From the NCBI GenBank assembly GCA_964482515.1, contig CAYZXT010000009.1:16251-80250 (forward strand): a stretch of 64,000 nt of DNA, written 5' to 3'. Shown here in pieces: positions 1,749 to 60,314 of this stretch. The translations under genes were made by a program, and so were the position numbers. Origin of the DNA: an uncultured Elusimicrobia bacterium (GTDB lineage: Bacteria; Elusimicrobiota; Elusimicrobia; FEN-1173). Each line of letters begins with the position of its first letter. Position 1 is the stretch's first letter. Under the pieces are notes generated by a model. The model was given only the letters and a program-made list of their open reading frames with translations, was not told the DNA's origin and did not search any database.

Positions 1749-1784
1749 CTGACATCACATCCGGGTTCTCGCTCCCCGCCCCCG

Positions 1785-7139: not shown

Positions 7140-7163
7140 CGTCTATCCTCCATGAATAAAATC

Positions 7164-12890: not shown

Positions 12891-14150
12891 TTACTTTCCC
12901 GCCGCTTTTTCCAGTTCCGCGACCCGCGCGGAAAGTGCGTCGTGCTCCGCGCTCAGTTCCTTGATCGCGTTCAGCATGCTCCACAAAATCGGATCGCTCC
13001 CGAGGGTCAGGTAGCCGTTGGACGTGGTGCGCACCGCTTCCGGGATCACCTTCTGCACGTCCTGGGCGATGAACCCCACGTTTTCCGCGTCGCTCGGGAT
13101 GCGCAGGGGGTTGTCCGCCTTGTAGCGGTAGCGGACCGGGTTCAGCTGGAGGACTTCCCGCAGGCCGTAGGTGAAGGGCCCGGTGACGTCTTTCAGCCGC
13201 GCGTCGGAAAAGGTCTGCCAGGTCCCGCCGCCCGCCTTGCTGGCGTCGCCGTTGACGCTCAGCGCGAAGTCGGGCGAGACCGTGCCGATGCCGACCCGCC
13301 GGTTGGTGATGACGAAGGTGTCGTCGCCGATGGTCACGTAGGGGTCCGCGCCGTCGATGATGAACCCGCCGGAGCTGATGTGCAGCTTGGCGGCGGGCGT
13401 TGGCGTGCCGATCCCCACCATGCCGCCGGTCACCACGAAGGTGCTGAGCCCGACGCTCATGGCGCTGCCCTGCACCGTGAGGGTGGAAGCGCCCACGAGC
13501 GTCAATTGGGTCGCGTCCACGGGAGGCAGCAGGACGCCCGGCAAAAGCCGGACGAGCTGGTCGGGGCCGTTGAAGGTGTTGCCCTGCATGGTGAAGGTGT
13601 CCGTGTCGATGTCCACGTCCACGCCGTCGGGGTCCGCGCTGACCACGACCTTGAAGCGGTTGGTGAAGTTGATGAAGCTGACGTCCGGGTGGACGTTGCC
13701 GCCGTTCAGCCGGATCCCCAGGGGGTTCAGGAGCCCGGGCAGCGTGGTGACGGAGGAGGGGATGTCGGCGATCTTGTCCCACCGCACCGACAGGGCGCTG
13801 GGGGCCGACGACAACGGGTAGCGCGGTGAGATCACCTGGCCCTCGATGGCCACCTGCAGCCACTTGTCGTCGGAGAAATCGATGGTGCCGAGGGCCTGGT
13901 TGACGGAGCCGAGGAGCACGCTGTAGACGCCGTTCTCGTCCGGCGTCACGGTCTGGGTCTCGGTGAAAAGGGCCGTTCCGCCCGTGGCCGCGCCCCAGAG
14001 GGTGAAGACCACGGACGTGGGCGCCGTGATCGGAATGCCGTCGCCGTCGACCAGCCGGCCCTGGAAGTTGAAGGTCTCCAGCAGCGCGTGGGCGGGCAGC
14101 GCCGCGGCGAAGAGCAGGGAAAAGAAAAGCAGGGATTTGGATAGTCTCAC
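12891..14150 (-). CDS. Tail-fibre-domain protein with an intramolecular chaperone (peptidase S74-like) C-terminus, paralog 2
   Basis: Signal peptide MRLSKSLLFFSLLFAAALPAHA, then an N-terminal FNFQGRLVDGDGIPI...NGVYSVLLG module. The C-terminus reads WQTFSDARLKDVTGPF...NPVRYRYK...VGFIAQDVQKVIPEAV...ILWSMLNAIKELSAE followed by a coiled coil. Confidence 0.8.
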   Translation of the reverse strand: MRLSKSLLFFSLLFAAALPAHALLETFNFQGRLVDGDGIPITAPTSVVFTLWGAATGGTALFTETQTVTPDENGVYSVLLGSVNQALGTIDFSDDKWLQVAIEGQVISPRYPLSSAPSALSVRWDKIADIPSSVTTLPGLLNPLGIRLNGGNVHPDVSFINFTNRFKVVVSADPDGVDVDIDTDTFTMQGNTFNGPDQLVRLLPGVLLPPVDATQLTLVGASTLTVQGSAMSVGLSTFVVTGGMVGIGTPTPAAKLHISSGGFIIDGADPYVTIGDDTFVITNRRVGIGTVSPDFALSVNGDASKAGGGTWQTFSDARLKDVTGPFTYGLREVLQLNPVRYRYKADNPLRIPSDAENVGFIAQDVQKVIPEAVRTTSNGYLTLGSDPILWSMLNAIKELSAEHDALSARVAELEKAAGK

Positions 14151-14164
14151 GAAACGGCCTCCGT

Positions 14165-15451
14165 CTAACGATTTCTCAAAAGTTCAAGTTGCGCGATCCG
14201 GGCCTTCAGAGCCTCGTTGCGCGCGCTCATCTCTTTGATCGCGTTCAGCATGCTCCACAAAATGGGGTCGCTCCCGAGGGAGAGATAACCGTTCGGGGCG
14301 TCGCGCACCGCCTCGGGGACCACGTCCCGCACGTCCTGGGCGATGAACCCGATGTTGTCTTTGTCGGACGGCAGGTTCAGGGGGTTCCCCGCCTTGTAGC
14401 GGTAGCGGACGGGGTTCAATCGGAGGACGTCGTCCAGGGAATGGGAAAATGGCCCCGTGACGTCTTTCAGCCGCGCGTCGGAAAAAGTCTGCCAGGTCCC
14501 GCCGCCCGTCTTGCTCGCGTCCCCGTTGACGGCGAGGGTGACGTCCGGCGACGCGGTGCCCATGCCGACGCGCCGGTTGGTGACCACGAAGGTCTGGTCG
14601 TTGATGTTCACGAAGGGATCGGCGCCGTCCAGGATGAACCCGCCGGAGCTGATGTGCAGTTTCGCCAAGGGCGCGGTTCTCCCGACCCCCACCATGCCGC
14701 CGCGCACCGTGAAGTCGTCCCCCGCCACGCTCATGGCGGCGCCCCGCACCGTGAGGGTGGACGCCAGCAGCGTCAGCGACTGCGCGTTCAGGGAAGGCAG
14801 GGCGCCGGCGCCGTTCAGTTGCAGGAGTTGGTTGGACCCGTTGAACGTGTTTCCCTGCAGGGTCGCCGAGGACGAGTTCATCTCAATGTCGATGGTCCAG
14901 TAGGGCGGCCCGAGCGGAGAGGTCTGCGGCGAGAAGATGGTGGAGAAGTTGAGGAACCCAGGGTCCAGGTGGACGGTGGCGCCGTTCAGCTGGACGTAGA
15001 CGTCCCGCTGCAGTCCCGATCCGTAAAGGTGTTGAGGGGGAACGCCCGAGACGGCCTGCCATTCGGCGGAGAGGGCGTTGGGGACCGACGACAGGGACAG
15101 CCGCGGGGCGAGGACCTCTCCCTCCACGTTCACCTCGAGCCAGGTGTCCGATCCGAAGTAGACGCCCGTCAGCGTTTGGTTGAGGGACCCGATGAGGGCG
15201 GTGTAGACCCCGTTGGCGTCGGGGGCGACGGTGTGGGTCTCCGTGTAGACGGCGAACTCCTCCTTTTGCAGCGAAACCTCCGCCGTCGACGACTTCCAGA
15301 GGCTGAAGATCACGGTCCGCGGGGTCGAGACCGGGTCGCCGGCGCTGTCGGTCAGGCGGCCCTGGAAATTGAAATGGGGCGTAAAGGCGGCGGAGGCGGG
15401 GACGGCGAGGGCGAAAAGCGCGAAGAACAACAGCGATTTGGAAATTTTCAA
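14165..15451 (-). CDS. Tail-fibre-domain protein with an S74-like C-terminus, paralog 1
   Basis: It has the same architecture as 12891..14150: FNFQGRLTDSAGDPV...; WQTFSDARLKDVTGPF...IGFIAQDVRDVVPEAV...ILWSMLNAIKEMSAR. The start is placed at TTG 15451 ((M)KISKSLLFFALFALAVPASA) by analogy with the paralog; the track uses TTG 15475. Confidence 0.8.
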   Translation of the reverse strand: MKISKSLLFFALFALAVPASAAFTPHFNFQGRLTDSAGDPVSTPRTVIFSLWKSSTAEVSLQKEEFAVYTETHTVAPDANGVYTALIGSLNQTLTGVYFGSDTWLEVNVEGEVLAPRLSLSSVPNALSAEWQAVSGVPPQHLYGSGLQRDVYVQLNGATVHLDPGFLNFSTIFSPQTSPLGPPYWTIDIEMNSSSATLQGNTFNGSNQLLQLNGAGALPSLNAQSLTLLASTLTVRGAAMSVAGDDFTVRGGMVGVGRTAPLAKLHISSGGFILDGADPFVNINDQTFVVTNRRVGMGTASPDVTLAVNGDASKTGGGTWQTFSDARLKDVTGPFSHSLDDVLRLNPVRYRYKAGNPLNLPSDKDNIGFIAQDVRDVVPEAVRDAPNGYLSLGSDPILWSMLNAIKEMSARNEALKARIAQLELLRNR

Positions 15452-15622
15452 GACGGTATCTCCGGTGTCGCGCAAAGTGTGGTCCCCCGGGAAAGCGCCG
15501 GACGGGCGGTTGCGGGGCGAGCTGTATAAATATGTGCCTAGAAATGAATAAATTCAACGATTTGTTGATTTTGTTTGGGGGAGGGGGGCGGCGGGTTCGT
15601 GAATTCGGGAACGAACGGCGGA

Positions 15623-16716: not shown

Positions 16717-16785
16717 CCTTGTCCGCTAGGCATGGTCCCGGTCTGTCGGATGGGATTGTCGGATGGCACAGGCCACGGGACAATT
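16717..16785 (+). repeat. Dispersed island repeat, copy A
   Basis: Core CCTTGTCCGCTAGGCATGGTCCCGGTCTGTCGGATGGG plus a second block TGGCACAGGCCACGGGACAATT. Homologous copies lie at 19005-19088 (same orientation), 22131-22201 and 23809-23845 (inverted). Confidence 0.75.
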
Positions 16786-16789
16786 GGTA

Positions 16790-16818
16790 AAATTGTGCAG
16801 CAAGTTGCTGCACAATTT
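16790..16818. promoter_or_regulatory. Perfect 29-nt palindrome upstream of the YhcG-like gene
   Basis: AAATTGTGCAGCAA-G-TTGCTGCACAATTT (14-bp arms, checked base by base) ends 38 nt before ATG 16857. A second, imperfect palindrome TGCCACAGCTTGCGGCA follows. Confidence 0.6.
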
Positions 16819-16856
16819 AAAACTGCCACAGCTTGCGGCAGAATTAGGTGAACATT

Positions 16857-17942
16857 ATGCCGCGTCAGAAAAAATCCCATCCAATAGTGAAACAAGCTGC
16901 TTCATCATTTCCGATGCCCGTTGATTTGTTGTCGGACATTCGAGGGTTTATTGAGACAACCCGTTCCCGGACGGCGCAGGCCGTCAATGCCGCATTGGTC
17001 ATGCTCTATTGGCGCATCGGGCGGCGTATCCAAGACGATGTTCTTAAAAACAAGCGGGCCGGTTATGGGGAAGAGATTGTGCAGACACTGTCGACACAAT
17101 TGGTCCCTGAATTCGGGGAGGGATTTGGCAAGCGGGTTCTTTTTCGGATGATTCGGTTCGCCGAGGCTTTCCCGGACGAACAGATTGTGTCGACGCTGTC
17201 GACACAATTGGGATGGTCTCATTTTGTGGAAATCATTCCCTTGGACGATCCGCTCAAGCGGAATTTCTACGCCGAGATGTGTCGGCTGGAGGGCTGGAGC
17301 GTGCGGAAGTTGCGGGAGAAAATCAGCGGGATGCTTTTTGAGCGGACGGCCCTTTCTAAGAAACCCGCCAAACTCGCTGAGTTGGAGCTGAAGAAGCTTC
17401 GCGAAGAGGACAAGCTCACGCCGGACCTGGTTTTCCGGGACCCTTATTTCCTGGATTTTCTCGGTCTTAAAGGTGTGTATCTGGAAAAGGATTTGGAAGC
17501 CGCGATCTTGCGGGAGATGGAGACGTTCATCCTGGAGTTGGGGGCCGGTTTTTCCTTCGTCTCTCGGCAAAAACGCATCCAGATCGGCGGAGAGGATTTT
17601 TATTTGGACCTTTTGTTCTATCACCGTAAACTGCGCCGCCTCGTCGCCGTGGAATTGAAATTGGGGAAGTTTAAACCCCAGTTCAAAGGCCAGATGGAGC
17701 TTTACCTTCGCTGGCTGGACAAGCACGAACGGCAGTCCGGCGAAGAAGCGCCGCTCGGACTCATCCTTTGCGCGGACAAGTCCGACGAACAGGTGGAGTT
17801 GTTGCAACTTGAAAAGAGCGGCATTCGCGTTGCTCAATATATGACTGCCTTGCCGTCTCGAAAGGTATTGGAAAATAAACTCCACCAAGCCATCCGCCAT
17901 GCGCGGGAACGCTTGGAAACCATAAAAGAATCCGGCGATTAG
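16857..17942 (+). CDS. YhcG/DUF1016 family PD-(D/E)xK nuclease
   Basis: The DUF1016_N region has the duplicated IV(Q/S)TLSTQL and WSHFVEIIPL motifs. The C-terminal nuclease core is GEDFYLDLLFYHRKLRRLVAVELKLGKFKPQFKGQMELYLRWLD. ATG 16857 is preceded by AGGTG; the track starts at GTG 16848. Confidence 0.85.
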   Translation: MPRQKKSHPIVKQAASSFPMPVDLLSDIRGFIETTRSRTAQAVNAALVMLYWRIGRRIQDDVLKNKRAGYGEEIVQTLSTQLVPEFGEGFGKRVLFRMIRFAEAFPDEQIVSTLSTQLGWSHFVEIIPLDDPLKRNFYAEMCRLEGWSVRKLREKISGMLFERTALSKKPAKLAELELKKLREEDKLTPDLVFRDPYFLDFLGLKGVYLEKDLEAAILREMETFILELGAGFSFVSRQKRIQIGGEDFYLDLLFYHRKLRRLVAVELKLGKFKPQFKGQMELYLRWLDKHERQSGEEAPLGLILCADKSDEQVELLQLEKSGIRVAQYMTALPSRKVLENKLHQAIRHARERLETIKESGD

Positions 17943-18011
17943 TGACCCCGTTGGCCCGTTTCTTTGGTTACTTTCTTTCGGGCACGCGAAAGAAAGTGAC
18001 ATAATGTCCGC

Positions 18012-18983
18012 ATGCCACCCCCGTGGAAACCGATATTACTTGTCGGGCTATGCCTGATATCCACCGGCGCGGCGCATCCCTGGTCCCGCGCCGGGCATGA
18101 AGCCTCCGCCCTCATCGCCGAAGGCCGCCTCGACCCCGCCACCCAAGCCAAAATCCGCGCGCTCCTCGGGCCCGGCGTCGGGCTGGACGACATCGCCCTC
18201 TGTTCCGACGCCATCAAGCGCCGCTCCGTGAACTGCGCCGGCGCCTTCTTCGTCAAGCGCGCGCCCCACACCAAGGCCTGGCATTACATCGACATCCCCA
18301 TTTCCGACGAACCCGCCGCCGGCGGCCTGCAGCAGTATTGCCCCAACGACGATTGCGTGACGGACCGCATCGCCGACCAAACCAAGGTCCTCAAAGACCC
18401 CGCCGCCCCGCGGCTGGAGAAGCAGGTCGCGCTCATGCACCTGGTCCATTTCGTGGGCGACCTGCACCAGCCGCTGCACTGCGCCGACGACAGGGACGCC
18501 GGCGGCAACGGCAAGAAGGTCTGGTTCATGGCGGGTCCCCGCGCCCGGAAGCCCGCCACCCTCCACCAGCTCTGGGACAACATGGTGGAGAAGGATTCCG
18601 TGCACGACAGGCTGGACGTCCGCGGCCTGGCCCGGTCCCTGGACGGCGCGATCACGGAGGAGGAAGCCGCGGCCTGGGCCAGGGGCTCCACCCACCAATG
18701 GACGATCGAAAGCCACCGCATCGCCCGGAACACGATCTATCCGCAGTACGCGCGGGACAAGGGGAAGGATTTGGGCAAGGACTACCAGGACGCCATGCGC
18801 CCCATCGCCCATGAACAGGTTCAAAAGGCCGGCGTCCGGCTGGCGGTGCTGCTGGACAAGACCCTGGCCGGCGTCACGGTGGAAGACCTCACCCGCGAAG
18901 CCCCGAAGCGGAAGGCGACGCCCGTTCCCACCGGACAAAAACCGCCCAAAGGCGGCGGCCCCATCCCCCTGCCGGGAAGATAG
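18012..18983 (+). CDS. Exported S1/P1-family nuclease
   Basis: Signal peptide then ...HPWSRAGHEASALIAE, WHYIDIPI, ALMHLVHFVGDLHQPLHC and LHQLWD (zinc ligand motifs of the S1-P1 family), with a Pro/Lys-rich tail. Confidence 0.8.
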   Translation: MPPPWKPILLVGLCLISTGAAHPWSRAGHEASALIAEGRLDPATQAKIRALLGPGVGLDDIALCSDAIKRRSVNCAGAFFVKRAPHTKAWHYIDIPISDEPAAGGLQQYCPNDDCVTDRIADQTKVLKDPAAPRLEKQVALMHLVHFVGDLHQPLHCADDRDAGGNGKKVWFMAGPRARKPATLHQLWDNMVEKDSVHDRLDVRGLARSLDGAITEEEAAAWARGSTHQWTIESHRIARNTIYPQYARDKGKDLGKDYQDAMRPIAHEQVQKAGVRLAVLLDKTLAGVTVEDLTREAPKRKATPVPTGQKPPKGGGPIPLPGR

Positions 18984-19004
18984 GTTTTTGATGTCATTCC
19001 GGCG

Positions 19005-19088
19005 CCTTGCCGCTAGGCATGGTCCCTCTTTGTAAGAAGGGGGGTAGGGTGAGGGTGGGCATTTATCGTGGCACAGCCCGGCCAAATT
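19005..19088 (+). repeat. Dispersed island repeat, copy B
   Basis: CCTTGCCGCTAGGCATGGTCCCTCTTTGTAAGAAGGGG ... TGGCACAGCCCGGCCAAATT. It starts 22 nt after the S1/P1 stop. Confidence 0.75.
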
Positions 19089-19190
19089 TCCTAATATGGC
19101 GAAGTGGTTTTCAGACGGAAACAGCGAGGGCGTCTTGAGGGAATCATGGGGCGCGTGAGGTTTGTTTTGGGAAATGATTAGGAGGATTGT

Positions 19191-21977
19191 TTGCCTTTAA
19201 GTTGGAATGAGATTCGTCATCGAGCTATTGGATTTTCACGCGAATGGGCAACGGCTGTGCGTGAAAGATCGGAATCCCAAACTTTTTGGAATGAATTTTT
19301 CCTGGTCTTTGGCTTCCCGCGGAAGAAAGTCGCCCTCTTTGAGGAACCAGTAAAGAAGTTGTCTGGGGAATATGGGTATATCGATCTCATCTGGCCGGGA
19401 ACGTTGTTGGTTGAACATAAGAGTTTCGGTCAAGACTTAAGCAAGGCTGAGTCTCAAGCTTTCCGCTATGCCAGGAGTTTGAACCAAGAGGATTCTCCCC
19501 GCTACATCATCGTTTCGGATTTCGCCCGCATCTCTCTCCACGATTTGGAAGAGGACAAAAGTATTACCTTTCCACTGACTGACTTTCATAAACACATCCA
19601 CGACTTCGCATTTATGTCCGGGTATCAGCAGCATACCTTTCAAGATCAAGATCCTATCAATATCGAAGCCGTCGAAATCATGGGTAAACTCCATGATGTT
19701 CTTGGGGACGGTGGCTACAGCGGCCATAAACTGGAGCGGTTTCTAGTCCGCATTCTTTTTTGCCTCTTCGCAGAGGATACGGGTATTTTCGAACGTGAGG
19801 AATTTCACTTCTTTATACGGAACAGCACCTCCGAGGATGGCTCAGATTTAGGGAACCATCTTGCCCGACTGTTTGACGTCCTAAACACACCAAAAGAAAA
19901 ACGCCAAAAGAACCTCGATGAATCCCTTGCAGATTTACCTTATGTAAATGGGGAACTGTTCGCGGAGAACCTTGGTTTCGCGGACTTCAATAGCGATATG
20001 CGCAATGCGCTTTTGGCCTGCACGCGGTTTGATTGGTCCAAGATATCTCCAGCCATCTTCGGCTCTCTATTCCAAGCGGTAATGGAACCGAAAGAGCGCC
20101 GCCAAATCGGAGCACACTATACCAGCGAGAGGGATATATTGAAAGTTGTTCGGAGTCTATTTCTTGATGATCTCCGCGTAGAATTTGAGGGTATCAAGAG
20201 ATCCACTGGTCAAAGTCGTAAATCTGGATTGAAACGCTTCCATGAAAAAATCTGCGCTTTACGTTTTCTTGATCCGGCCTGTGGTTGCGGTAATTTTCTT
20301 GTTATTACCTACCGTGAACTCCGTGAATTGGAATTGGAAACATTACGGGAGTTGCATCTTACAGGCACCGGTGAGGCAAAAGGATTCCAGCAGGAATTAA
20401 CGCTTGAGGAAGTAAACAGACTATCACTTGTTGATGTGGACCAACTATACGGCATTGAATTGAAGGAATGGCCCGTAAGAATCGCCGAAGTGGCTCTTTG
20501 GTTAATGGATCATCAAATGAACATCAAGGTTTCCGAGACCTTCGGCCAATTGTATCAAAGGCTTCCTCTGAAGAAACGTCCCAACATCGTGCAAGGTAAC
20601 GCTTTACGAATGGATTGGAAAGAAGTCATTCCCCCAGAGAAATGCAGTTACATCCTTGGGAACCCGCCATTTGTGGGGGCCATGTATATGGAGCCAGAGC
20701 AACGGCACGATATGCTGCTTGCAGCGAATAATTTAAATGGTGTTGGTGTTTTGGATTATGTTTCGGCATGGTATTTTGTCGCTTCGGGCTATGTAACGGG
20801 GACAAAAATAAGAGTTGGTTTTGTTTCAACCAACTCGATTACACAAGGCGAGCAGGCGGGAATTTTATGGTCTGAACTGTTTAATCGGGGAGTGAAGATT
20901 CATTTTGCACATCGGCCATTCGCCTGGGATAGTGAGGCCAGAGGAAAGGCTCATGTTCACGTTGTGATAATAGGATTTGGTGTTTTCGACATCCCGGCAA
21001 AAATAATATTTGATTATGATGCTAATCCCGGGAAACCAATCTTGTCGCAGGTTCGTAATATTAATCCTTATTTAGTTGAGGGCATGGACATTTGCATTCG
21101 TAATCGAAGTGAGCCGATTTGTAATGTTCCCAAAATGGCTTGGGGAAGCCAGCCTCGGGATGGGGGAAATTTCCTGATGAGTTCCGAGGGAAAAAAGGAT
21201 CTATTACGTAAGGAACCTGCTGCAATAAAATGGATTAGACCATTCATGGGGGCTGAAGAGTTTTTAAATGGCGTAGAACGATGGTGCCTTTGGTTGGTGG
21301 GTATTCAGCCGCAAGAACTTAACAGCCTTGTTGAAGTCAAAAATAGAGTTGAAGGTGTAAAGCAAATGCGTCTTTCTAGTAAAGCGGAAGCGACCCGAAA
21401 AAAAGCGAGCACACCAACATTATTTGCCCAAATTGCACAGCCAAACTCTGATTATCTTCTGGTCCCATTGGTAAGTTCTGAACGCCGTTCAATTATTCCA
21501 TTTGGCTTCATGTCCAAAGAGGTTATTGCCAGCAATCTTTGTTGCATAGTTTCGGATGCTACGCCATATCATTTCGGAATACTCTCATCGTCTATGCATA
21601 TGGCCTGGGTTCGTCAGATTTGTGGTAGGCTCGAATCTCGTTACAGGTATTCAAAGGATATCGTCTACAACAATTACCCTTGGCCGCAAAATCCGACGGA
21701 CAAACAGAAAGTCGCGGTGGAAGAGGCGGCGCAAAACGTCTTGGACGTCCGAAAGGAATATTCAAAATCCACGTTGGCCGATCTTTACGATCCACTGTCC
21801 ATGCCGCCGAAGCTTGTCAAGGCTCACGCGAACTTAGACCGGGTTGTTGACCTTTGCTATCGCAAGGAATCGTTCACCAGCGAACGCCAGCGCGTGGAAT
21901 ATCTTTTCAATTTATATGAGCGATTGACCGAACCGTTGGTTGCTATGTCTAGTCGGAAAAAGCGAACCAAGACTTAG
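19191..21977 (+). CDS. MmeI-family type IIL restriction-modification enzyme (single-chain endonuclease plus N6-adenine methyltransferase)
   Basis: The N-terminus reads SWNEIRHRAIGFSREW...ESQTFWNEFFLVFG...YGYIDLIWPGTLLVEHKS (D...ExK). The SAM motif is RFLDPACGCGNFLV and the catalytic motif is LGNPPFVG. It is 928 aa with a TTG start preceded by AGGAGG, and is clearly AT-richer than the flanks. Confidence 0.85.
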   Translation: MPLSWNEIRHRAIGFSREWATAVRERSESQTFWNEFFLVFGFPRKKVALFEEPVKKLSGEYGYIDLIWPGTLLVEHKSFGQDLSKAESQAFRYARSLNQEDSPRYIIVSDFARISLHDLEEDKSITFPLTDFHKHIHDFAFMSGYQQHTFQDQDPINIEAVEIMGKLHDVLGDGGYSGHKLERFLVRILFCLFAEDTGIFEREEFHFFIRNSTSEDGSDLGNHLARLFDVLNTPKEKRQKNLDESLADLPYVNGELFAENLGFADFNSDMRNALLACTRFDWSKISPAIFGSLFQAVMEPKERRQIGAHYTSERDILKVVRSLFLDDLRVEFEGIKRSTGQSRKSGLKRFHEKICALRFLDPACGCGNFLVITYRELRELELETLRELHLTGTGEAKGFQQELTLEEVNRLSLVDVDQLYGIELKEWPVRIAEVALWLMDHQMNIKVSETFGQLYQRLPLKKRPNIVQGNALRMDWKEVIPPEKCSYILGNPPFVGAMYMEPEQRHDMLLAANNLNGVGVLDYVSAWYFVASGYVTGTKIRVGFVSTNSITQGEQAGILWSELFNRGVKIHFAHRPFAWDSEARGKAHVHVVIIGFGVFDIPAKIIFDYDANPGKPILSQVRNINPYLVEGMDICIRNRSEPICNVPKMAWGSQPRDGGNFLMSSEGKKDLLRKEPAAIKWIRPFMGAEEFLNGVERWCLWLVGIQPQELNSLVEVKNRVEGVKQMRLSSKAEATRKKASTPTLFAQIAQPNSDYLLVPLVSSERRSIIPFGFMSKEVIASNLCCIVSDATPYHFGILSSSMHMAWVRQICGRLESRYRYSKDIVYNNYPWPQNPTDKQKVAVEEAAQNVLDVRKEYSKSTLADLYDPLSMPPKLVKAHANLDRVVDLCYRKESFTSERQRVEYLFNLYERLTEPLVAMSSRKKRTKT

Positions 21978-22008
21978 ATCAAAAAGGTGTTTTTATGAAA
22001 AAGAAACC

Positions 22009-22035
22009 GGTACCGGAGTTGACAGATTGACAATC
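22009..22035 (+). repeat. Copy 2 of the GT(G/A)CCGGAGTTGACA motif
   Basis: GGTACCGGAGTTGACAGATTGACAATC, 32 nt after the MmeI-like stop. Confidence 0.7.
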
Positions 22036-22076
22036 AGGTTCAGTACTAGATTTGATTTGTTGAAGGAGCCCCCGCA

Positions 22077-22223
22077 ATGAAAACCAAAAAGCCCCTCTGC
22101 CAAGCCATCAACACGAAAGGGAAGAAGTGCATTGTCCCTGCCGTGCCCGGCAGCAAATTCTCACCTTCCTACAGACAGGTGCCACGGCTAGCGCCGACGG
22201 GTTTCCGACATAAGAAGAAATAA
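22077..22223 (+). CDS. 48-aa basic protein with a short Cys motif (possibly degenerate)
   Basis: GAAGGAG lies 9 nt upstream of the ATG. The product is MKTKKPLCQAINTKGKKCIVPAVPGSKFSPSYRQVPRLAPTGFRHKKK. It is too short for the ORF track, and its 3' half is made of island repeat copy C. Confidence 0.4.
   Translation: MKTKKPLCQAINTKGKKCIVPAVPGSKFSPSYRQVPRLAPTGFRHKKK
22131..22201 (-). repeat. Dispersed island repeat, copy C (inverted)
   Basis: The reverse complement reads CCCGTCGGCGCTAGCCGTGGCACCTGTCTGTAGGAAGGTG ... GGCACGGCAGGGACAAT. Confidence 0.7.
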
Positions 22224-22369
22224 CTGTCCTTTTCTCCCGTTATTCCCAGCCCGTTTCCCTAAAACTTCAGATTAAATCCCGCTAAGCTCCAGATTCTTCC
22301 TCTATGATGAGGTGAGATATGGTTCTTGATGGTCGTTCACATATATGTTAACCTTGAGGAGATGGCGGC

Positions 22370-22792
22370 GTGAGCACTCATTCTGAGAAGCGGAATTGCG
22401 TGCTTTATTCCGGCCGGTTCTATTCGGCCGAATGGTATTACAGGGAGGACGGCGGGATGCCGGCTCTCGAATATTATCGGGAACTCCCTATCCATGATCG
22501 AGTGCGGCTATTACAGATCATTAAGCACCTGTGCGACGCTCCCTACGGGACAATCCTTCCCGTGACGCTTTACAGGATCGAAGATCGGGAAAACAAGATT
22601 TACGCGTTTAAGCCGAGGGACGAGCGATTCTTCAGTTTTACGATGGAGGGCGCAAGGGTCATCGTTACGAACGCTTACCGCAAGCATTCACAACAGATGA
22701 CCAAGGCGGATCTGGAGTCCTTGAAAACAGCTGTTCGCTATCGGAACGATTATTTGAGGCGCCTGAAAGAGGGGACATATTATGAAGGCTAA
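22370..22792 (+). CDS. RelE/ParE-superfamily toxin (Gp49/DUF891-like)
   Basis: ...KIYAFKPRDERFFSFTMEGARVIVTNAYRKHSQQMTKADLE. The GTG start is preceded by GAGGAG, and the gene overlaps the downstream HTH gene by 11 nt. Confidence 0.65.
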   Translation: MSTHSEKRNCVLYSGRFYSAEWYYREDGGMPALEYYRELPIHDRVRLLQIIKHLCDAPYGTILPVTLYRIEDRENKIYAFKPRDERFFSFTMEGARVIVTNAYRKHSQQMTKADLESLKTAVRYRNDYLRRLKEGTYYEG

Positions 22793-23132
22793 AAAGAAAA
22801 TCAAAAAGGCAAAGAGCACCTTTGATCGGGAAATGGAAAACCCGGAATTCAGGAATCTTTTCGAGGAATCTTGGCCCGCCTTCCAAGTGGAAGTCCAGCT
22901 GCTGAAAGCCTTGGAAGGCAAGCAATGGTCCTATTCCGACCTCGCGAAGGTATTGCACACGCAGAAGAGCGCCATTTCGCGCGACCTGAAAGGCGGCGGC
23001 ATTCGGTCTGCTTCCATCACGCGGATCGCGAAGATGGCGGAAGCCCTGGGAATGAGATTTATCCCGTTCTGCGTCTCCGAGAAGAAGGCGAGGGAAATTC
23101 TTCCCGCTATCAAGAAACTCCTGGCCGCGTAA
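22782..23132 (+). CDS. HTH (XRE-like) antitoxin
   Basis: WSYSDLAKVLHTQKSAISRDLKGGGIRSASITRIAKMAEALGMRF is a helix-turn-helix pattern. The gene is small and translationally coupled to the toxin gene. Confidence 0.65.
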   Translation: MKAKKKIKKAKSTFDREMENPEFRNLFEESWPAFQVEVQLLKALEGKQWSYSDLAKVLHTQKSAISRDLKGGGIRSASITRIAKMAEALGMRFIPFCVSEKKAREILPAIKKLLAA

Positions 23133-23141
23133 TAGGGATTC

Positions 23142-23167
23142 GTGCCGGAGTTGACACGTTGACAATC
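23142..23167 (+). repeat. Copy 3 of the GT(G/A)CCGGAGTTGACA motif
   Basis: GTGCCGGAGTTGACACGTTGACAATC, 10 nt after the antitoxin stop and 32 nt before ATG 23199. Confidence 0.7.
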
Positions 23168-23198
23168 GACCAGCCTATTCTTTAAGTACAATACCTCC

Positions 23199-24242
23199 AT
23201 GCCGAAAGAATCCATCCCCTCGGTCGCCCATCCCGCCTACGCCAAGCTCCGTTCCGCCGTCCACAAAACCCTCCTCCTCGGTCAGAAACAAATCGAACAA
23301 GCCAAAGTCCGTACCTACTACGAAACCGGAAAACACATCCAAGAACATATCGCCCGCTACGGTTCGCGCTCCGAGCATTACGGCGCTCAAGTGGTGGAGA
23401 AGCTTTCGGTTGATTTGGGGATTAGCACCCGGGTCTTGCGGCAGTGTGTGCAGTTCGCCCGGAACTTCAAGATTGTGAACGCGCGTTCACAATCTTTGCC
23501 GGCCCAATTGCCTTGGACGCATTACCGTCAACTGATGACCATTCCGGATGAGGACGCGCGGATTTCCCTGATGAAAAGGGCCGAGAAGTCCGAATGGAGC
23601 GAACGCCAGCTGGCGGAGAAGATCCGCCTTGAGGTGCGAGAAGCAAAGTCCCCGTCAACCAACGGCGGGCATAGTTCAATGGTAGAAAAGAAGTATCCCA
23701 AGCTCATTCCCAAGCGCGGCGAGCTTTACACGTACCGCCTCATTGCGCCGGAAGCGGTTGATGGCGAAGCGGGTCTGTGGATTGATTTGGGTTTCCAGGT
23801 GCGGCGCACCTTTCCACAAACAGGTGCCATGGCTAGCGCCAAGGGCGGACAGATCGTGGAATCCAAAAAGACGGGGGAAATCTATTCCGCGGTCCCGTCC
23901 AAGCGGACGGAGGCGGACTTGTTCACCTTCCAGGCGCCGGTGGAGCGGGTGGTGGACGGCGACACGCTGATCGTGAACGTCGACCTGGGGTTCGACACGG
24001 GCGTGCGGCAATACCTGCGGTTGCGCGGCATCAATTGCCCGGAGCTGGACACGCCGGAGGGCAAGCGGGCCAAGGCCTTCGTGGAAAAGGAATTGGGGAA
24101 AGCGCGGCGGATCATCCTGACGAGCTCCCGGTCCGACAAGTACGACCGCTACCTGGCGGACGTGTTTATTGAGTCCACCAACGGCGAACGATATCTGAAC
24201 CAGGCGCTGCTGGACGAAGGCCTCGCGGTCCGGATGGAATAG
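23199..24242 (+). CDS. DUF1016_N domain fused to a staphylococcal-nuclease (SNase)-like domain
   Basis: The N-terminal 150 aa parallels the YhcG N-domain (…WTHYRQLMTIPDEDARISLMKRAEKSEWSERQLAEKI). The C-terminus reads VVDGDTLIVNVDLGF...YLRLRGINCPELDTPEGKRAKAFVEKEL...DKYDRYLADVFI...YLNQALLDEGLAV. Confidence 0.75.
   Translation: MPKESIPSVAHPAYAKLRSAVHKTLLLGQKQIEQAKVRTYYETGKHIQEHIARYGSRSEHYGAQVVEKLSVDLGISTRVLRQCVQFARNFKIVNARSQSLPAQLPWTHYRQLMTIPDEDARISLMKRAEKSEWSERQLAEKIRLEVREAKSPSTNGGHSSMVEKKYPKLIPKRGELYTYRLIAPEAVDGEAGLWIDLGFQVRRTFPQTGAMASAKGGQIVESKKTGEIYSAVPSKRTEADLFTFQAPVERVVDGDTLIVNVDLGFDTGVRQYLRLRGINCPELDTPEGKRAKAFVEKELGKARRIILTSSRSDKYDRYLADVFIESTNGERYLNQALLDEGLAVRME
23809..23845 (-). repeat. 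Dispersed island repeat, copy D (inverted, inside a CDS)
   Basis: The reverse complement reads CCCTTGGCGCTAGCCATGGCACCTGTTTGTGGAAAGG. On the + strand it encodes TFPQTGAMASAKG in the linker of the DUF1016_N-SNase protein. Confidence 0.65.
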
Positions 24243-24248
24243 CCCTCC

Positions 24249-24303
24249 CAATCTTCATCCCTCCTTCAGTCGTTCTTCAGACTTAAAAAGTAATCTCTCC
24301 TCC
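24249..24303 (+). promoter_or_regulatory. Conserved ORF6N leader, copy L2
   Basis: CAATCTTCATCCCTCCTTCAGTCGTTCTTCAGACTTAAAAAGTAATCTCTCCTCC, followed by an ATG (24304) that hits a stop after 4 codons. Confidence 0.7.
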
Positions 24304-24334
24304 ATGAATTGTGCATGATGAATGGGAGGACTAG

Positions 24335-24359
24335 AGGTGGTCGCAAATTGCGACCGCCT
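24335..24359. repeat. Near-perfect palindrome in the ORF6N-2 5' region, sharing a 17-nt core with the copy-1 in-gene palindrome
   Basis: AGGTGGTCGCAA-A-TTGCGACCGCCT has one T:G mismatch. The core GGTCGCAAATTGCGACC (24339-24355) is identical to 2035-2051. Confidence 0.8.
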
Positions 24360-24386
24360 TCGACCACTCAAATTCTTGGAGGTTTT

Positions 24387-24914
24387 ATGCGAGCTGTAAT
24401 GAAAACCGAACACATTCAATCGATGATATTCCTGATTCGCGGGCGCAAGGTCATGTTGGACCGTGATTTGGCGGCGCTTTATGGCATTGCCACAAAGGTC
24501 CTTAAGCAGGCTGTTAAGCGGAATCATTTGCGATTCCCGGAGGATTTCATGTTTGAACTGTCTGCGGAAGAGCAGTCAAATTGGAGGTCACAATTTGTGA
24601 CCTCCAATTCTTCCCTGAATAAGGGACTCCGGTGGCGTTCAATGGCATTCACTGAGTATGGTGTGGCCATGCTTTCCGGCGTTCTGAAAAGTGAAAGGGC
24701 CGTTCAGGTTAATATCGCCATCGTTCGGGCATTTATCGACATGCGGCGGATGATTTCGGAAACACGAGGGTTGGCGGAGAAATTGGCGGAGCATGAGAAA
24801 AAGATCGGGGGACTGGCGAACGATGTCCGGCATATGTTCGACCTGCTACAGCCGTTGCTGGATGGACCCACTAAAAAACCCGGGAAGATCGGGTTCGGAA
24901 TGCGACAGATTTAG
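24387..24914 (+). CDS. ORF6N domain protein, copy 2 (apparently intact)
   Basis: MRAVMKTEHIQSMIFLIRGRKVMLDRDLAALYGIATKVLKQAVKRNHLRFPEDFMFELSAEEQSNWRSQFVTSN...[35 protein letters not shown] lies 4 nt before ATG 24387; the frame is open from 24309. Confidence 0.85.
   Translation: MRAVMKTEHIQSMIFLIRGRKVMLDRDLAALYGIATKVLKQAVKRNHLRFPEDFMFELSAEEQSNWRSQFVTSNSSLNKGLRWRSMAFTEYGVAMLSGVLKSERAVQVNIAIVRAFIDMRRMISETRGLAEKLAEHEKKIGGLANDVRHMFDLLQPLLDGPTKKPGKIGFGMRQI
24579..24609. repeat. Perfect 31-nt palindrome inside ORF6N copy 2 (15-bp arms)
   Basis: AATTGGAGGTCACAA-T-TTGTGACCTCCAATT, checked base by base. It encodes NWRSQFVTSN. Confidence 0.9.
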
Positions 24915-26212: not shown

Positions 26213-26287
26213 GGCCTGATTGTAAGAAACAACCGCCGCCGGTTCAAGGGCGGAGATTCACCCGACCCGCTTCCGAGGCCTTCCTCC

Positions 26288-26344
26288 CAATCTTCATCCT
26301 CCCTCCCGCGGTTCTTCAGAATCAAAAAGTAACCTTTCCTGCGG
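26288..26344 (+). promoter_or_regulatory. Conserved ORF6N leader, copy L3
   Basis: CAATCTTCATCCTCCCTCCCGCGGTTCTTCAGAATCAAAAAGTAACCTTTCCTGCGG is fused directly to mid-gene ORF6N sequence. Confidence 0.7.
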
Positions 26345-26551: not shown

Positions 26552-26577
26552 TAGTAAGTAGCTTATAAACTACACTT

Positions 26578-57952: not shown

Positions 57953-59383
57953 ATGGCGGGCGTCGGCATCGAACTGCAGGCATCGTTCCTGAAGCGGCGG
58001 AGTTATCTCCGACTCCTGAAAATTTTCGGCTACGCCACCTCTCTGGCCGGCGGGCCGTGGCTGGTGGCCAGCATCACGGTGGCGCTGCTCTGCGTCTTCG
58101 GGATCAAGCAATATTCCTGGCATGAGATGACGCTCTTCGCCGTGGTCGTGATGTACGCCTTCGCGGGCTCGGTCCTCTTCGTCAGTCCCTTCGCCCTTTC
58201 CTTCGGGCGCTACCTGGCGGACCAGACCTTCGTCGGGCGGCTGAACCAGCGGCGGATGTTCCTGCTGCTCGAGGCCGTGATCGTGCCGCTCGCGGCGGTG
58301 ACGGGGTACTTCGCGGCGCGGCATTTCCTGCCGGACAGCGTGGTCCACGCCAGCGCTTACCGCCTCCTGGCCGCGGCGCTCTTCACGTTTCTCGCGGGGC
58401 TTTGGCCGGTGATGACCTACCTTGATTTCCGGCGTCGGCTGTCGCATCCGATGATCGCCTTCGTGGCCGGATCGCTTGCCGCCCTGGCGAGCTCCTGGTG
58501 GTTCCGGCGATACCTCGACTCCACCGGCTACATGGCCGGGTTCACGTTGGGCATGGGCCTGATCTACGCCGCGCTTTTCTTTTCCGCGCTTCACCGCCCG
58601 GTGGGAGCCGCCCGCGATCTGAAAGCCGAAAAACCTTATCTCGAGGCGGCGCGGCCCAAGTTCGCGGCCCTGATCCTCATCGGCGTCTTCTACAACCTCG
58701 GCATCTGGATGGATAAGTTCGTGATCTGGTCCACGCGCGGGACCGTCGTGTGGCCCGAGAGCCCGCTGCGCGTCCTGCACGTCTACGACATCGCCACCTT
58801 CATGGCCTACCTGCTCCTGATCCCGGGCATCGCCTATTTCCTCCTGGTGGTGGAATCTTCCTTCTACGAAAAATTCCGCGAATACCTCGCCGGCCTGGAG
58901 AGCGATCCCTATCATGAGGTCGAGGAAAAGCGGGCCGGCCTGGTGCGCGGCTTGTTCCGCCAGGCGGCGTACCTCGCCGAACTGCAGGCCATCCTAACGG
59001 TGATCGCGTTTTTCATCGGGCCCGCGCTCTTCCGCACGCTCGGATTACCCGCGGAGGGCGTCCCGATCTACCGCGTGCTCATCTGGGCCGCGTCGTTCCA
59101 GGTGATGTTGTGGATGGGGATCCTCCTGTTGCTTTATTTCGAGTTCCGGCGCGAGGCGTTGCTCGCGGCGGTCGGTTTTTGTTTCGCCAACACCGTTTTG
59201 ACATATGCCAGTCTGAATTCTCCCGGCTGGGTTTTAGGCTGGGGGTACGCGTTGTCTGCGCTGGCCGCCGGCGTCTTCAGCCTATGGGCGCTGCACGTAC
59301 GTCTTAAGGACCTCCACCGGCATATTTTCCGGCTGCACTTCGTGGAGCCCCCGCCGGTCCTCGATGAGAGCGCGCAAGGCTAA
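57953..59383 (+). CDS. pelG: PelG-like polysaccharide export membrane protein
   Basis: MAGVGIELQASFLKRRSYLRLLKIFGYATSLAGGPWLV..., about 12 TM helices, 476 aa. Confidence 0.75.
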   Translation: MAGVGIELQASFLKRRSYLRLLKIFGYATSLAGGPWLVASITVALLCVFGIKQYSWHEMTLFAVVVMYAFAGSVLFVSPFALSFGRYLADQTFVGRLNQRRMFLLLEAVIVPLAAVTGYFAARHFLPDSVVHASAYRLLAAALFTFLAGLWPVMTYLDFRRRLSHPMIAFVAGSLAALASSWWFRRYLDSTGYMAGFTLGMGLIYAALFFSALHRPVGAARDLKAEKPYLEAARPKFAALILIGVFYNLGIWMDKFVIWSTRGTVVWPESPLRVLHVYDIATFMAYLLLIPGIAYFLLVVESSFYEKFREYLAGLESDPYHEVEEKRAGLVRGLFRQAAYLAELQAILTVIAFFIGPALFRTLGLPAEGVPIYRVLIWAASFQVMLWMGILLLLYFEFRREALLAAVGFCFANTVLTYASLNSPGWVLGWGYALSALAAGVFSLWALHVRLKDLHRHIFRLHFVEPPPVLDESAQG

Positions 59384-60314
59384 ACTCGCCGCGGCGTTCC
59401 TGTTTTGCGCTTCGCACCTCGCGGCGGCGCATCCGGCCGCCTCAACTCCTACCCAAAACGCCCCGTCCGACAAACCGGGACCACGACTAGCGTCGACGGC
59501 CTTCGCCTGTTATTACGGCTACGGCCGCCTCGAGGAACTGAAAAATTACCGCCTCGTCGTCCTCCAGCCCTCCGCCTATAATCCGTCCGATATCGCCGCG
59601 CTCAAAGAAGCGGGCGTCACCGTGCTCGCGTACATTTCCCTCGGCGAGGACGAGGAGCTGCGCCGCGGCAACGGGCGCGGCCCCGGCGGCTGGGCGGATT
59701 GGTATCTGGACGAGTTCAAGGGGGCCGGGTTCGCGTACCCGGGCCCGGACGGACAGCCGGACAAGCACGCCGCCTGGGGCTCCTACTACGTGGACCCATC
59801 CCGTTCCGGTTGGAGGAAGCGCGCGCTTCAATCGGCCGAACGATTTAAATCCGTATTTGGGTTCGACGGTCTTTTCTTGGACACGATGCTTCTCCCGCGG
59901 GACGCCTTCCGCGAAAAGACCGAGCGGCGGATGGACAAGGGAATGAAGCGCCTGCTGGCGGAGCTGCGGCGGGATTGGCCCGGCGGATACTTTTTGGGGA
60001 ACAATGCCTGGGAGTTTTTAGAACAGGAGAAGTTGCTCAACGGCGTCATGCTGGAGAGCGCCCTGGGGGAAGACCCCTCCGGCTTCCAAAAGATCGGCCG
60101 TCTGGTCAAAGAGGTTCAGCAATTGAGGCCCTTGGACGCGTTCCTCCTGGAAACAATTTCTCCCGGAGCGGGGGCGAAGGCGGACGCCGTCTGCGCGACT
60201 GCCGATCTCCTGGGTTTTTCGGCCGCCCTCTACTCAGACGACGAGGCAGGCCGGTCGCTGACTGTTTTTCCGTGGAAGACGTGCGGCCCGGGTCCATCCG
60301 CGTTAAAGCGGTGA
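59364..60314 (+). CDS. Exported TIM-barrel glycoside hydrolase (GH114 / PelA-hydrolase-like)
   Basis: Signal peptide MRARKAKLAAAFLFCASHLAAAHP. ...YRLVVLQPSAYNPSDIAALKEAGVTVLAYISLGE...YYVDPSRSGWRKRALQSAERFKSVFGFDGLFLDTM.... It overlaps the pelG-like 3' end by 20 nt. Confidence 0.55.
   Translation: MRARKAKLAAAFLFCASHLAAAHPAASTPTQNAPSDKPGPRLASTAFACYYGYGRLEELKNYRLVVLQPSAYNPSDIAALKEAGVTVLAYISLGEDEELRRGNGRGPGGWADWYLDEFKGAGFAYPGPDGQPDKHAAWGSYYVDPSRSGWRKRALQSAERFKSVFGFDGLFLDTMLLPRDAFREKTERRMDKGMKRLLAELRRDWPGGYFLGNNAWEFLEQEKLLNGVMLESALGEDPSGFQKIGRLVKEVQQLRPLDAFLLETISPGAGAKADAVCATADLLGFSAALYSDDEAGRSLTVFPWKTCGPGPSALKR

What the first reader, a model, noticed from the sequence alone, without database searches (positions are those of the whole stretch)
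16717..16785. Dispersed roughly 40-85-nt island repeat in four copies, two direct and two inverted, one inside a gene
Aligned in one orientation, the four cores are:
- A (16717-16754): CCTTGTCCGCTAGGCATGGTCCCGGTCTGTCGGATGGG
- B (19005-19042): CCTTG-CCGCTAGGCATGGTCCCTCTTTGTAAGAAGGGG
- C (rc of 22162-22201): CCCGTCGGCGCTAGCCGTGGCACCTGTCTGTAGGAAGGTG
- D (rc of 23809-23845): CCCTTG-GCGCTAGCCATGGCACCTGTTTGTGGAAAGG

Copies A, B and C also share a second block, TGGCACAG(G/C)CC..GG.ACAAT(T), 10-30 nt further on. A and B are direct repeats that bracket the YhcG plus S1/P1 nuclease pair. B and C are inverted and bracket the MmeI-like cassette. D lies in the inter-domain linker of the DUF1016_N-SNase fusion.

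The two orientations form two sequence subtypes (GGCATGGTCCC versus GCC(A/G)TGGCACC). One reading frame of the core gives a related peptide in all four: RQTGTMPSGQG, LQRGTMPSGKA, LQTGATASADG and PQTGAMASAKG. In C this requires a frame different from that of the local ORF. I therefore cannot tell whether this is a nucleotide element (a recombination site, MITE-like element or regulator site) or the scar of a recurrent coding segment.
Basis: seen in the sequence. Interest (0 to 1): 0.6.

Follow-up and report, generated by a model that had tools for sequence, protein, structure and literature searches.

The report
Dispersed double-hairpin repeat in Elusimicrobia
The repeat is real: it is a 38-base DNA element that folds into two small hairpins, is scattered through this genome and two related Elusimicrobia genomes, and sometimes sits in frame inside genes, so it resembles the REP-type repeats of other bacteria and is not a leftover piece of a gene.

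Summary
There is also a fifth copy in the window (59461-59498, minus strand), inside a GH114/PelA-like gene. At least one more lies just past the right end of the window on the same contig. Only a 38-39 nt core is shared; the "second block" and the 85-nt extent are not statistically supported.

The core is two adjacent hairpins:
- H1 has a 7-bp stem and an invariant GCTA loop.
- H2 has a 5-bp stem and a conserved 10-nt loop, GTYTGTNGGA.

Across 17 distinct copies, 94.6% of stem positions pair and 7 of 12 pairs show compensatory changes.

In a scan of 185,579 species genomes, an exact pattern hit only two Elusimicrobia MAGs. There the core lies next to housekeeping genes, as inverted or tandem pairs, inside a giant ORF, and inside longer repeat units including a 260-nt MITE-like unit.

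Homologues of the two window proteins that carry a copy do not conserve the segment, so the coding-scar reading is rejected.

Best reading: a clade-specific, REP-like, non-autonomous hairpin element, probably recognised as single-stranded DNA by an enzyme encoded elsewhere. It does not fit the formal REP definition, and no partner enzyme was found. Interest is moderate.

The parts
16717..16755 (+). Copy A of the double-hairpin core. It lies in the divergent intergenic region, 93 nt upstream of the yhcG start. H1 carries a 1-nt bulge.
   Evidence: 52.9 bits; the minimum-energy fold gives two hairpins.
19005..19042 (+). Copy B. It starts 22 nt after the S1/P1 nuclease stop codon and ends about 150 nt before the MmeI-like start.
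   Evidence: 58.4 bits; fold z = -2.3.
22162..22199 (-). Copy C, downstream of the MmeI-like gene and antisense to its neighbours. It overlaps a 48-codon ORF (22076-22222 +) that the Logan gene caller predicts.
   Evidence: (56.8 bits).
23807..23844 (-). Copy D, inside the DUF1016_N-SNase gene. It encodes residues about 203-216 (TFPQTGAMASAKG), a loop between two beta strands.
   Evidence: (60.5 bits).
59461..59498 (-). It lies inside the GH114/PelA-like gene just after the signal peptide (residues 33-46, APSDKPGPRLASTA) and is read in a different frame from D.
   Evidence: (59.6 bits).
16848..17942 (+). YhcG-type gene (DUF1016_N plus PDDEXK nuclease domain). With the next gene it is bracketed by the direct copies A and B. 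Context only.
18012..18983 (+). S1/P1 nuclease gene. Context only.
19191..21977 (+). MmeI-like restriction-modification gene with low third-codon-position G+C (GC3 0.46), bracketed by the inverted copies B and C. Context only.
23199..24242 (+). DUF1016_N-SNase gene that hosts copy D.
59364..60314 (+). GH114/PelA-like gene that hosts copy E. It follows pelG.

Best explanation
The repeat is a small structured DNA element of 38-39 nt, specific to a clade of Elusimicrobia. It consists of two adjacent hairpins: H1, CCATGCC-GCTA-GGCATGG, and H2, TCCCT-GTYTGTNGGA-AGGGA.

It behaves like the REP/BIME class of short palindromic repeats:
- It is dispersed as single units, tandem pairs and inverted pairs, mostly between genes.
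- It is occasionally tolerated in frame inside genes at permissive loops or linkers.
- It is also carried as a module inside longer repeat units.

Proposed mechanism (inferred, not shown): one strand, the one written as A and B on the plus strand, folds into the two hairpins when single-stranded. A trans-acting protein reads the invariant loops and copies or moves the element, by analogy with a RAYT/HUH tyrosine transposase or an Ssn-like ssDNA nuclease. The covarying stems only have to pair.

The cluster of four copies in the nuclease and restriction island most likely reflects tolerance of insertions plus local duplication or gene conversion in dispensable DNA. The copies also provide 38-nt homologies that could help shuffle cassettes.
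For: Shown:
- Five non-chance copies in the window, plus one clear copy and one degenerate neighbour 12 kb further along the same contig.
- Two-hairpin structure. On 17 distinct copies, 94.6% of cells pair, 7 of 12 pairs have compensatory changes, 0 of 500 shuffles reach any measure, and slid controls pair at 31-50%. Every copy folded adopts this structure as its minimum-energy structure.
- Strand asymmetry: 8 G.T wobbles against 1 C.A.
- Narrow distribution. In GTDB species genomes the exact 19-base pattern hits only two Elusimicrobia MAGs (12 hits). It gives 3 hits in metagenomes, one of them a chance hit in sucD, and none in viral contigs.
- Most hits in PL23a_bin.39 lie within about 150 nt of contig ends, as expected of multi-copy repeats.
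- Neighbouring genes are ordinary housekeeping genes: ndk-tRNA-Ala, the parA|parB spacer, ppk and the pel operon.
- An inverted pair lies 105 nt apart (L004), and tandem pairs occur in L001 and L019.
- Lineage-specific gain. Syntenic pelG-GH114 loci in relatives have no copy, and their proteins lack about 16 residues at E.
- Genome-specific subfamilies. Every window-genome copy except the degenerate tandem neighbour, which has a different H1 arm, has a T.T mismatch in H1 where most copies from other genomes have A-T.
- Orientation relative to flanking genes is mixed.
Against: - No transposase, RAYT, GIY-YIG or recombinase gene was found in the window or in the 141 kb of related loci, apart from one unrelated IS256-type hit. 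The whole genomes could not be searched.
- The core fails the formal REP definition. Most copies have ATGG, not GT(A/G)G, 5' of the palindrome, and the invariant bases lie in the loops.
- No target-site duplication or conserved flanking sequence was seen.
- No empty-site polymorphism was found. All other assemblies of this strain are 100% identical.
- D adds only about 2 residues relative to its closest homologue, so a simple 38-nt insertion does not explain it.
- The near-identical core in genomes of 45% and 62% G+C could also mean a host function under selection rather than selfish spread.
Confidence: 0.55

Rival explanations
1. The element is a functional structured RNA module. A protein would bind or process it in transcripts, for example as an mRNA stabiliser, an RNase site or an antitermination site. 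It would have spread because it is useful.
For: - Covarying stems with invariant loops are the classic signature of an RNA motif.
- The G.T wobble bias points to one functional strand.
- The GCTA loop closed by a C-G pair fits a GNNA-type tetraloop (my own knowledge).
- The 260-nt unit that carries the core in PL23a_bin.39 is extremely structured as RNA (z = -6.6) and includes a UUCG loop.
- The sequence is conserved across genomes of very different G+C content.
Against: - No Rfam family matches, even at permissive thresholds.
- Orientation relative to neighbouring genes is mixed. All three copies that lie inside confirmed genes are antisense to the mRNA.
- Neighbouring genes are functionally unrelated.
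- Some copies lie in promoter-side divergent spacers and others after stop codons.
Confidence: 0.2
2. The element is a site-specific recombination or cassette-boundary signal for the nuclease and restriction island. It would be recognised as a folded single strand, like an integron attC site, or it would protect or limit exchange of the flanked genes, like the Neisseria NTS/Ssn system.
For: - Four of the five window copies fall in 7.2 kb, which is 11% of the window (p about 7e-4 if placement were uniform; my calculation).
- A, B and C lie at junctions between genes of very different third-codon-position G+C (GC3): 0.93 | 0.64, and 0.87 | 0.46 | 0.62.
- A and B are direct repeats around two nuclease genes, and B and C are inverted repeats around the MmeI-like gene.
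- In the Ssn system, hairpin repeats cluster around particular genes and are cut as ssDNA (PMC11893778).
Against: - No integrase, recombinase or GIY-YIG gene was found in the window ORFs that were scanned.
- The attC end motifs RYYYAAC and GTTRRRY are absent on reading the sequence.
- The core does not match the published SRM search pattern.
- Copies E and L019, and most copies in the other MAGs, lie next to housekeeping genes and not in islands.
- The closest homologue of the D-carrying gene lies in another island that has no copy.
Confidence: 0.12
3. The repeat is a scar of a recurrent coding segment, or a conserved peptide motif (xQTGxxxSxxG).
For: - One frame gives similar peptides in all copies, and D and L007 are read in that frame.
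- A sucD gene (L016) encodes KQTGATASA and matches the DNA pattern.
Against: - Homologues of both host proteins do not conserve the segment.
- E is read in another frame.
- Most copies are non-coding.
- Changes between copies preserve base pairing, not amino acids.
- The sucD match is the universally conserved SucD motif. It is best explained as a chance hit of a 19-base pattern in a very large database.
Confidence: 0.02

Closest known systems
REP / BIME / REPIN elements with their RAYT transposases (Enterobacteria, Pseudomonas, Stenotrophomonas)
   Same: - Short (about 20-40 nt) palindromic units, mostly between genes.
- Occur singly, in tandem and as close inverted doublets.
- Form lineage-specific sequence classes.
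- Combine with other motifs into mosaic units.
- Thought to be recognised as a folded single strand (PMC3686654; PMC3337134).
   Different: - Two different adjacent hairpins instead of one.
- The invariant bases are in the loops (CGCTAG and GTYTGT..GA), not in a 5' GT(A/G)G tetranucleotide.
- The second loop is 10 nt long.
- About 3 of roughly 20 copies lie inside genes.
- No RAYT gene was seen, though the whole genomes were not available.
Neisseria dRS3/NTS hairpin repeats and the SsnA ssDNA nuclease; the wider Ssn-related motifs (SRM)
   Same: - Hairpin repeats of 20-30 nt, present in many copies.
- They cluster around and bracket particular genes.
- They have an oriented, non-palindromic part.
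- They are recognised as ssDNA.
- H2 (TCCCT-N10-AGGGA) resembles dRS3 (ATTCCC-N8-GGGAAT) in layout (PMC11893778).
   Different: - The sequence does not match the published SRM pattern.
- No GIY-YIG gene was found in the window.
- The host phylum is different.
Rickettsia palindromic elements (RPE)
   Same: Palindromic repeats that sit in frame inside unrelated protein-coding genes at structurally permissive places and are translated (PMC10969869). Here this applies to D and E, where homologues and a structure model show a permissive place, and to L007, which lies inside a long ORF.
   Different: RPEs are about 100-150 bp and are restricted to Rickettsia, and nearly half of them lie in genes. 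This element is 38 nt and is mostly intergenic.
MITEs and IS200/IS605-derived palindrome-associated elements
   Same: Non-autonomous, structured and dispersed. In PL23a_bin.39 the core rides inside a 260-nt unit with terminal inverted repeats of about 21 nt.
   Different: The 38-nt core itself has no terminal inverted repeats, no target-site duplication and no conserved flanking target sequence.

Membership tests
REP (as refined by Nunvar et al.; PMC3686654) | A conserved 5'-terminal tetranucleotide GT(A/G)G directly upstream of the palindrome. | tested here: not met
   The 4 nt before H2 are ATGG in most copies and GTGG only in C and E. Nothing is conserved before H1. The invariant bases are CGCTAG in the H1 loop.
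REP | A short palindromic (hairpin-forming) region whose base composition varies. | tested here: met
   Two hairpins, 94.6% paired, with 7 of 12 pairs showing compensatory change.
REP | Highly numerous and almost exclusively intergenic. | tested here: inconclusive
   - 7 copies in about 74 kb of this genome.
- 14 copies in 55 kb of selected PL23a_bin.39 loci.
- Whole-genome counts were not obtainable.
- Three copies lie inside genes.
REP/REPIN-RAYT | A single-copy RAYT (Y1/HUH transposase) gene flanked by inverted copies. | not testable with these tools
   None was found in the window or the fetched loci.
REPIN | Predominantly close inverted doublets. | tested here: inconclusive
   One close inverted pair (L004, 105 nt apart), two tandem pairs (L001, L019), and the rest singletons.
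Ssn-related motif (SRM/NTS) | A match to HGTCWYN(0-2)YYVSBRHN(0-5)WNVSBRGN(0-2)RNCYNB, with an adjacent GIY-YIG (cd10448) gene. | tested here: not met
   The regex finds one unrelated hit in the window (48993-49021) and none at any copy. No GIY-YIG domain appears in the scanned ORFs.
MITE | Terminal inverted repeats and target-site duplications. | tested here: not met
   The flanks of independent copies share nothing. Only the 260-nt carrier unit in PL23a_bin.39 has terminal inverted repeats.
Integron attC | R''/R' ends (RYYYAAC ... GTTRRRY), a single long imperfect hairpin, an adjacent intI gene, and cassettes in one orientation. | tested here: not met
   The end motifs are absent on reading the sequence. 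No integrase lies nearby. Orientations are mixed.
Any Rfam 15 RNA family | A covariance-model match. | tested here: not met
   No match at any copy at gathering thresholds or up to E = 5.
Rickettsia palindromic element | An element of about 100-150 bp from one of the RPE families, inserted in frame in genes. | tested here: not met
   In-frame copies exist, but the length is 38 nt and the host is Elusimicrobia. The resemblance is in behaviour only.

The most novel reading that the evidence does not exclude
The double hairpin could be the cognate DNA signal of a so-far unrecognised hairpin-reading enzyme system in Elusimicrobia. It would be functionally parallel to REP/RAYT or NTS/Ssn but would have its own two-loop recognition code.

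One candidate partner is a nuclease gene that the copies bracket or invade: the YhcG/DUF1016 or S1/P1 pair between A and B, or the DUF1016_N-SNase gene that carries D. A system of this kind could mark or shuffle defence-gene cassettes and seed new loops in proteins.
Probability: 0.15. Interest if true: 0.7.

Novelty: new variant of a known kind. Interest (0 to 1): 0.42.

Why it matters
Short hairpin repeats such as REP, NTS and RPE are among the few repeat classes that persist in compact bacterial genomes. Each well-studied case has led to a dedicated enzyme (RAYT, SsnA).

This family comes from an uncultivated phylum. It has an unusually clear recognition signature: two fixed loops on covarying stems. 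It also shows in-frame residence in proteins.

It is therefore a good handle for three things:
- finding the partner enzyme;
- dating and tracking genome rearrangements in these MAGs;
- explaining contig breaks in their assemblies.

If the clustering around nuclease and restriction genes is functional, it would bear on how defence islands are assembled.

Tried and rejected
- Sigma-54 promoter. C and D contain TGGCAC, but the -12 element is one base out of register and lacks GC. Rejected on reading the sequence.
- tRNA or tmRNA fragment, or an att site. The window has no tRNA genes.
- Known RNA families. None match.
- The 'second block' as part of the element. It is not significant.
- Weaker copies in the window. 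None were found with filters off.
- Viral origin. There were no hits in IMG/VR.
- Strain polymorphism or empty sites. All Logan contigs are 100% identical to the window.
- Copies in more distant relatives. None in L018, L022 or L023.
- Homologues of the L007 giant ORF, to test for insertion. The search returned nothing and Pfam found no domain.
- A recurring neighbouring gene family across loci. None recurs; the neighbours are housekeeping genes.
- tblastn of the window's island proteins (YhcG, S1/P1, DUF1016_N-SNase, MmeI-like, zinc-ribbon) against the loci. The only hits were the known L018 homologue and one SNase-domain gene in L017.
- Hairpin repeats around the L018 homologue. None were found.
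- A literature search for the sequence. No papers.
- The metagenome hit L016. It is the conserved SucD motif and was dropped as a chance hit.

Full report
**1. The observation**

A repeat scan and a degenerate pattern search add a fifth copy, E, at 59461-59498 on the minus strand. The pattern CGCTAGNCRTGGNNCCNNTYTGT gives 5 exact hits against 0.22 expected, and none of 100 shuffles reached 5.

A covariance model built from the copies was run over the window with all filters off. It finds exactly these five, at 52.9-60.5 bits, and the next hit scores 12 bits.

The same contig continues beyond the window in locus L019, which is 100% identical over the overlap. It holds one further clear copy (32.6 bits) with a degenerate tandem neighbour, between ppk and a divergent gene.

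Only about 38 nt are shared. Pairwise local alignments of 100-nt flanks are no better than shuffled sequence. The best pairs among A, B and C reach only p = 0.03-0.10 without correction. The 'second block' and the 85-nt extent are therefore not supported.

E carries the TCCC-type second hairpin while lying in minus orientation.

**2. Anatomy**

Aligned in one orientation, every copy reads as follows:
- a 7-nt arm, GCTA, then the complementary arm (H1; consensus CCATGCC-GCTA-GGCATGG);
- immediately afterwards a 5-nt arm, a 10-nt loop GTYTGTNGGA, then the complementary arm (H2; TCCCT...AGGGA, or CACCT...AGGTG in C and D).

| Measure (17 distinct copies) | Result |
|---|---|
| Stem cells that pair | 94.6% |
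| Pairs with compensatory double changes | 7 of 12 |
| Shuffles (of 500) reaching any of the five measures | 0 |
| Pairing when partners are slid by 1-3 columns | 31-50% |

An independent MAFFT alignment gave the same picture. Thermodynamic folding of each of eight copies as ssDNA returns the two hairpins as the minimum-energy structure. The z-scores are modest for the window copies (+0.4 to -2.3) and stronger elsewhere (-2.3 to -3.6).

CGCTAG, the TGG junction and most of the H2 loop are invariant, while the stems drift. This is the signature of a nucleic acid read in folded, single-stranded form. It is not the signature of a double-stranded operator, where both half-sites would stay constant.

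Wobble pairs are 8 G.T against 1 C.A. The strand written as A and B on the plus strand is therefore the better hairpin.

Five of the six window-genome copies outside A, including the clear L019 copy, share a T.T mismatch in H1; the degenerate tandem neighbour has a different H1 arm. A shows it too if its extra T is treated as a bulge. Most copies from other genomes have A-T at that position. C and E share one H1 subtype, while C and D share one H2 subtype. The two hairpins therefore assort independently.

**3. Where else it occurs**

An exact 19-base pattern was scanned over one genome for each of 185,579 species. It hit only two Elusimicrobia MAGs: PL23a_bin.39 (10 hits) and NC_groundwater_1300 (2 hits). 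In metagenomes it hit 3 contigs. One of those (L016) is the universally conserved SucD motif and was discarded as a chance hit. There were no hits in viral contigs.

The covariance model found four more divergent copies in the fetched loci.

The contexts are ordinary:
- between ndk and tRNA-Ala, as a tandem pair;
- in the parA|parB spacer;
- immediately after an intrinsic terminator (L010);
- as an inverted pair 105 nt apart (L004);
- inside a giant ORF of more than 2039 codons (L007).

Most PL23a_bin.39 hits lie within about 150 nt of contig ends. In that MAG the core is embedded in at least two longer repeat units:
- a 260-nt unit with terminal inverted repeats of about 21 nt, which is highly structured (RNA fold z = -6.6);
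- a second, unrelated unit (L003, L004, L011).

A third unit occurs in two metagenome contigs (L015, L017).

PL23a_bin.39 has about 45% G+C and the window about 62%. The cores are nevertheless nearly identical.

No copy was found in three loci from more distant relatives. These include two with the syntenic pelF-pelG-GH114 arrangement.

**4. Copies inside genes**

*Copy E.* It encodes APSDKPGPRLASTA just after the signal peptide of a GH114/PelA-like protein. Six homologues (42-51% identity) lack about 16 residues at exactly this place.

*Copy D.* It encodes TFPQTGAMASAKG in the DUF1016_N-SNase protein. This architecture is a large family (1053 hits), so the element did not create the fusion.
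- In 27 aligned homologues the segment is a variable loop with consensus P-xxA-KG-FKxG. One member has a 12-residue insertion there.
- The window protein is only about 2 residues longer than its closest relative. D is therefore a replacement or a trimmed insertion, not a clean 38-nt addition.
- An AlphaFold model (mean pLDDT 86.9) places residues 203-216 between two beta strands.

*Frames.* D and L007 use one open frame, and E uses the other. So does C, if the 48-codon ORF 22076-22222 is real. The third frame contains TAG.

**5. What it is not**

- It matches no Rfam family, at gathering thresholds or up to E = 5.
- There is no tRNA in the window.
- No integrase, transposase or GIY-YIG gene was found among the island genes or the other window ORFs that were scanned.
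- No gene family recurs beside copies in other genomes.
- It does not fit the published search pattern for Ssn-related hairpin motifs.
- It does not fit the refined REP definition, which requires GT(A/G)G 5' of the palindrome.
- Its orientation relative to flanking genes is mixed, roughly half co-directional and half antisense. This argues against a sense-strand RNA regulator.

**6. Interpretation**

*Firmly supported:* this is a dispersed, structured, nucleotide-level repeat family, specific to a clade of Elusimicrobia. It has genome-specific subfamilies and was gained in a lineage-specific way inside at least one gene.

*Most likely mechanism (inferred):* a REP-like non-autonomous element whose two hairpins are recognised as single-stranded DNA by an enzyme encoded elsewhere in the genome. 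The known precedents are REP/RAYT and NTS/SsnA. In the NTS/SsnA case, hairpin repeats also bracket particular genes. The in-frame copies parallel the Rickettsia palindromic elements.

*Clustering in the island.* Four of five window copies fall within 7.2 kb of the nuclease and restriction island. This is non-random (about 7e-4 under uniform placement). A, B and C lie at junctions between genes of very different GC3.
- This fits tolerance of insertions in dispensable DNA plus local duplication: C and D are 85% identical and 1.6 kb apart.
- A role in cassette exchange cannot be excluded.

*Rivals:* a functional RNA module (0.2), a recombination or boundary signal (0.12) and a coding scar (0.02, effectively refuted).

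**7. Limits**

- Whole genomes could not be scanned, so copy number, replication-strand bias and the presence of a partner enzyme remain unknown.
- No polymorphic empty site was available.
- The last homologue search, on the L007 ORF, returned nothing.

**8. Verdict**

The feature is real. The element is a new variant of the small palindromic repeat class. Interest is moderate (0.42).

Noticed in passing
window 1780-1837, 24244-24301, 26283-26340 (with genes 1839-2375 and 24309-24914, and a remnant near 26340-26580): Three ORF6N-domain genes or remnants are each preceded by the same 58-nt upstream repeat (71-83% identity). The coding regions are also related (24640-24727 vs 26445-26532; 2280-2344 vs 24832-24896). 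Two of them lie beside the nuclease island.
   Followed up: partly
window 16790-16818: A perfect 29-nt palindrome, AAATTGTGCAGCAAGTTGCTGCACAATTT, lies between copy A and the yhcG start codon. It looks like an operator or a bidirectional hairpin.
   Followed up: no
window 12891-14150 (-) and 14165-15475 (-): Tandem paralogous genes, 78% identical over 300 nt and with further shared blocks. One carries a Peptidase_S74 (endosialidase chaperone) domain.
   Followed up: no
window 45762-45922 (-): A cobalamin riboswitch scores just above the Rfam gathering threshold (32.7 vs 31.5 bits).
   Followed up: no
H2 loop of copies A and E (window 16741-16750, 59466-59475) and most non-window copies: The reverse complement of the H2 loop reads TCCGAC. 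From my own knowledge this is the MmeI recognition sequence TCCRAC, and copies B and C flank an MmeI-like gene. B, C and D themselves lack the site. This may be coincidence.
   Followed up: no
L001 6576-6842, L008 3168-3470, and L002, L005, L006, L009 (PL23a_bin.39): A 260-263-nt MITE-like unit has terminal inverted repeats of about 21 nt (TAACCCGAATTTTTCA...TGAAAATTTTGGGTTAA). It carries the core, a UUCG-capped hairpin and a 15-bp hairpin. A 39-nt deletion variant also exists. The RNA fold z-score is -6.6.
   Followed up: partly
L001 1500-1700 (-): A 29-nt direct duplication of the tRNA-Ala leader plus the first bases of the tRNA flanks an AT-rich hairpin. It looks like a separate small insertion with a long target duplication.
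   Followed up: no
window 16848-24242: The island is compositionally mosaic. Third-codon-position G+C (GC3) is 0.64 for yhcG, 0.87 for S1/P1, 0.46 for the MmeI-like gene, 0.62-0.69 for the Gp49/HTH toxin-antitoxin-like pair and 0.75 for DUF1016_N-SNase, against 0.8-0.93 for flanking genes.
   Followed up: partly
L017 978-1466 (-): An SNase-domain gene (36% identical to the C-terminal part of the D-carrying protein) lies about 850 nt from a core copy in an unrelated metagenome contig. This is a single case.
   Followed up: no
window 7150-7264 and 33257-33482: Long runs of CCGCCGAA-type 9/12-nt periodic repeats. They are probably Gly/Phe-rich low-complexity coding sequence on the minus strand.
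   Followed up: no
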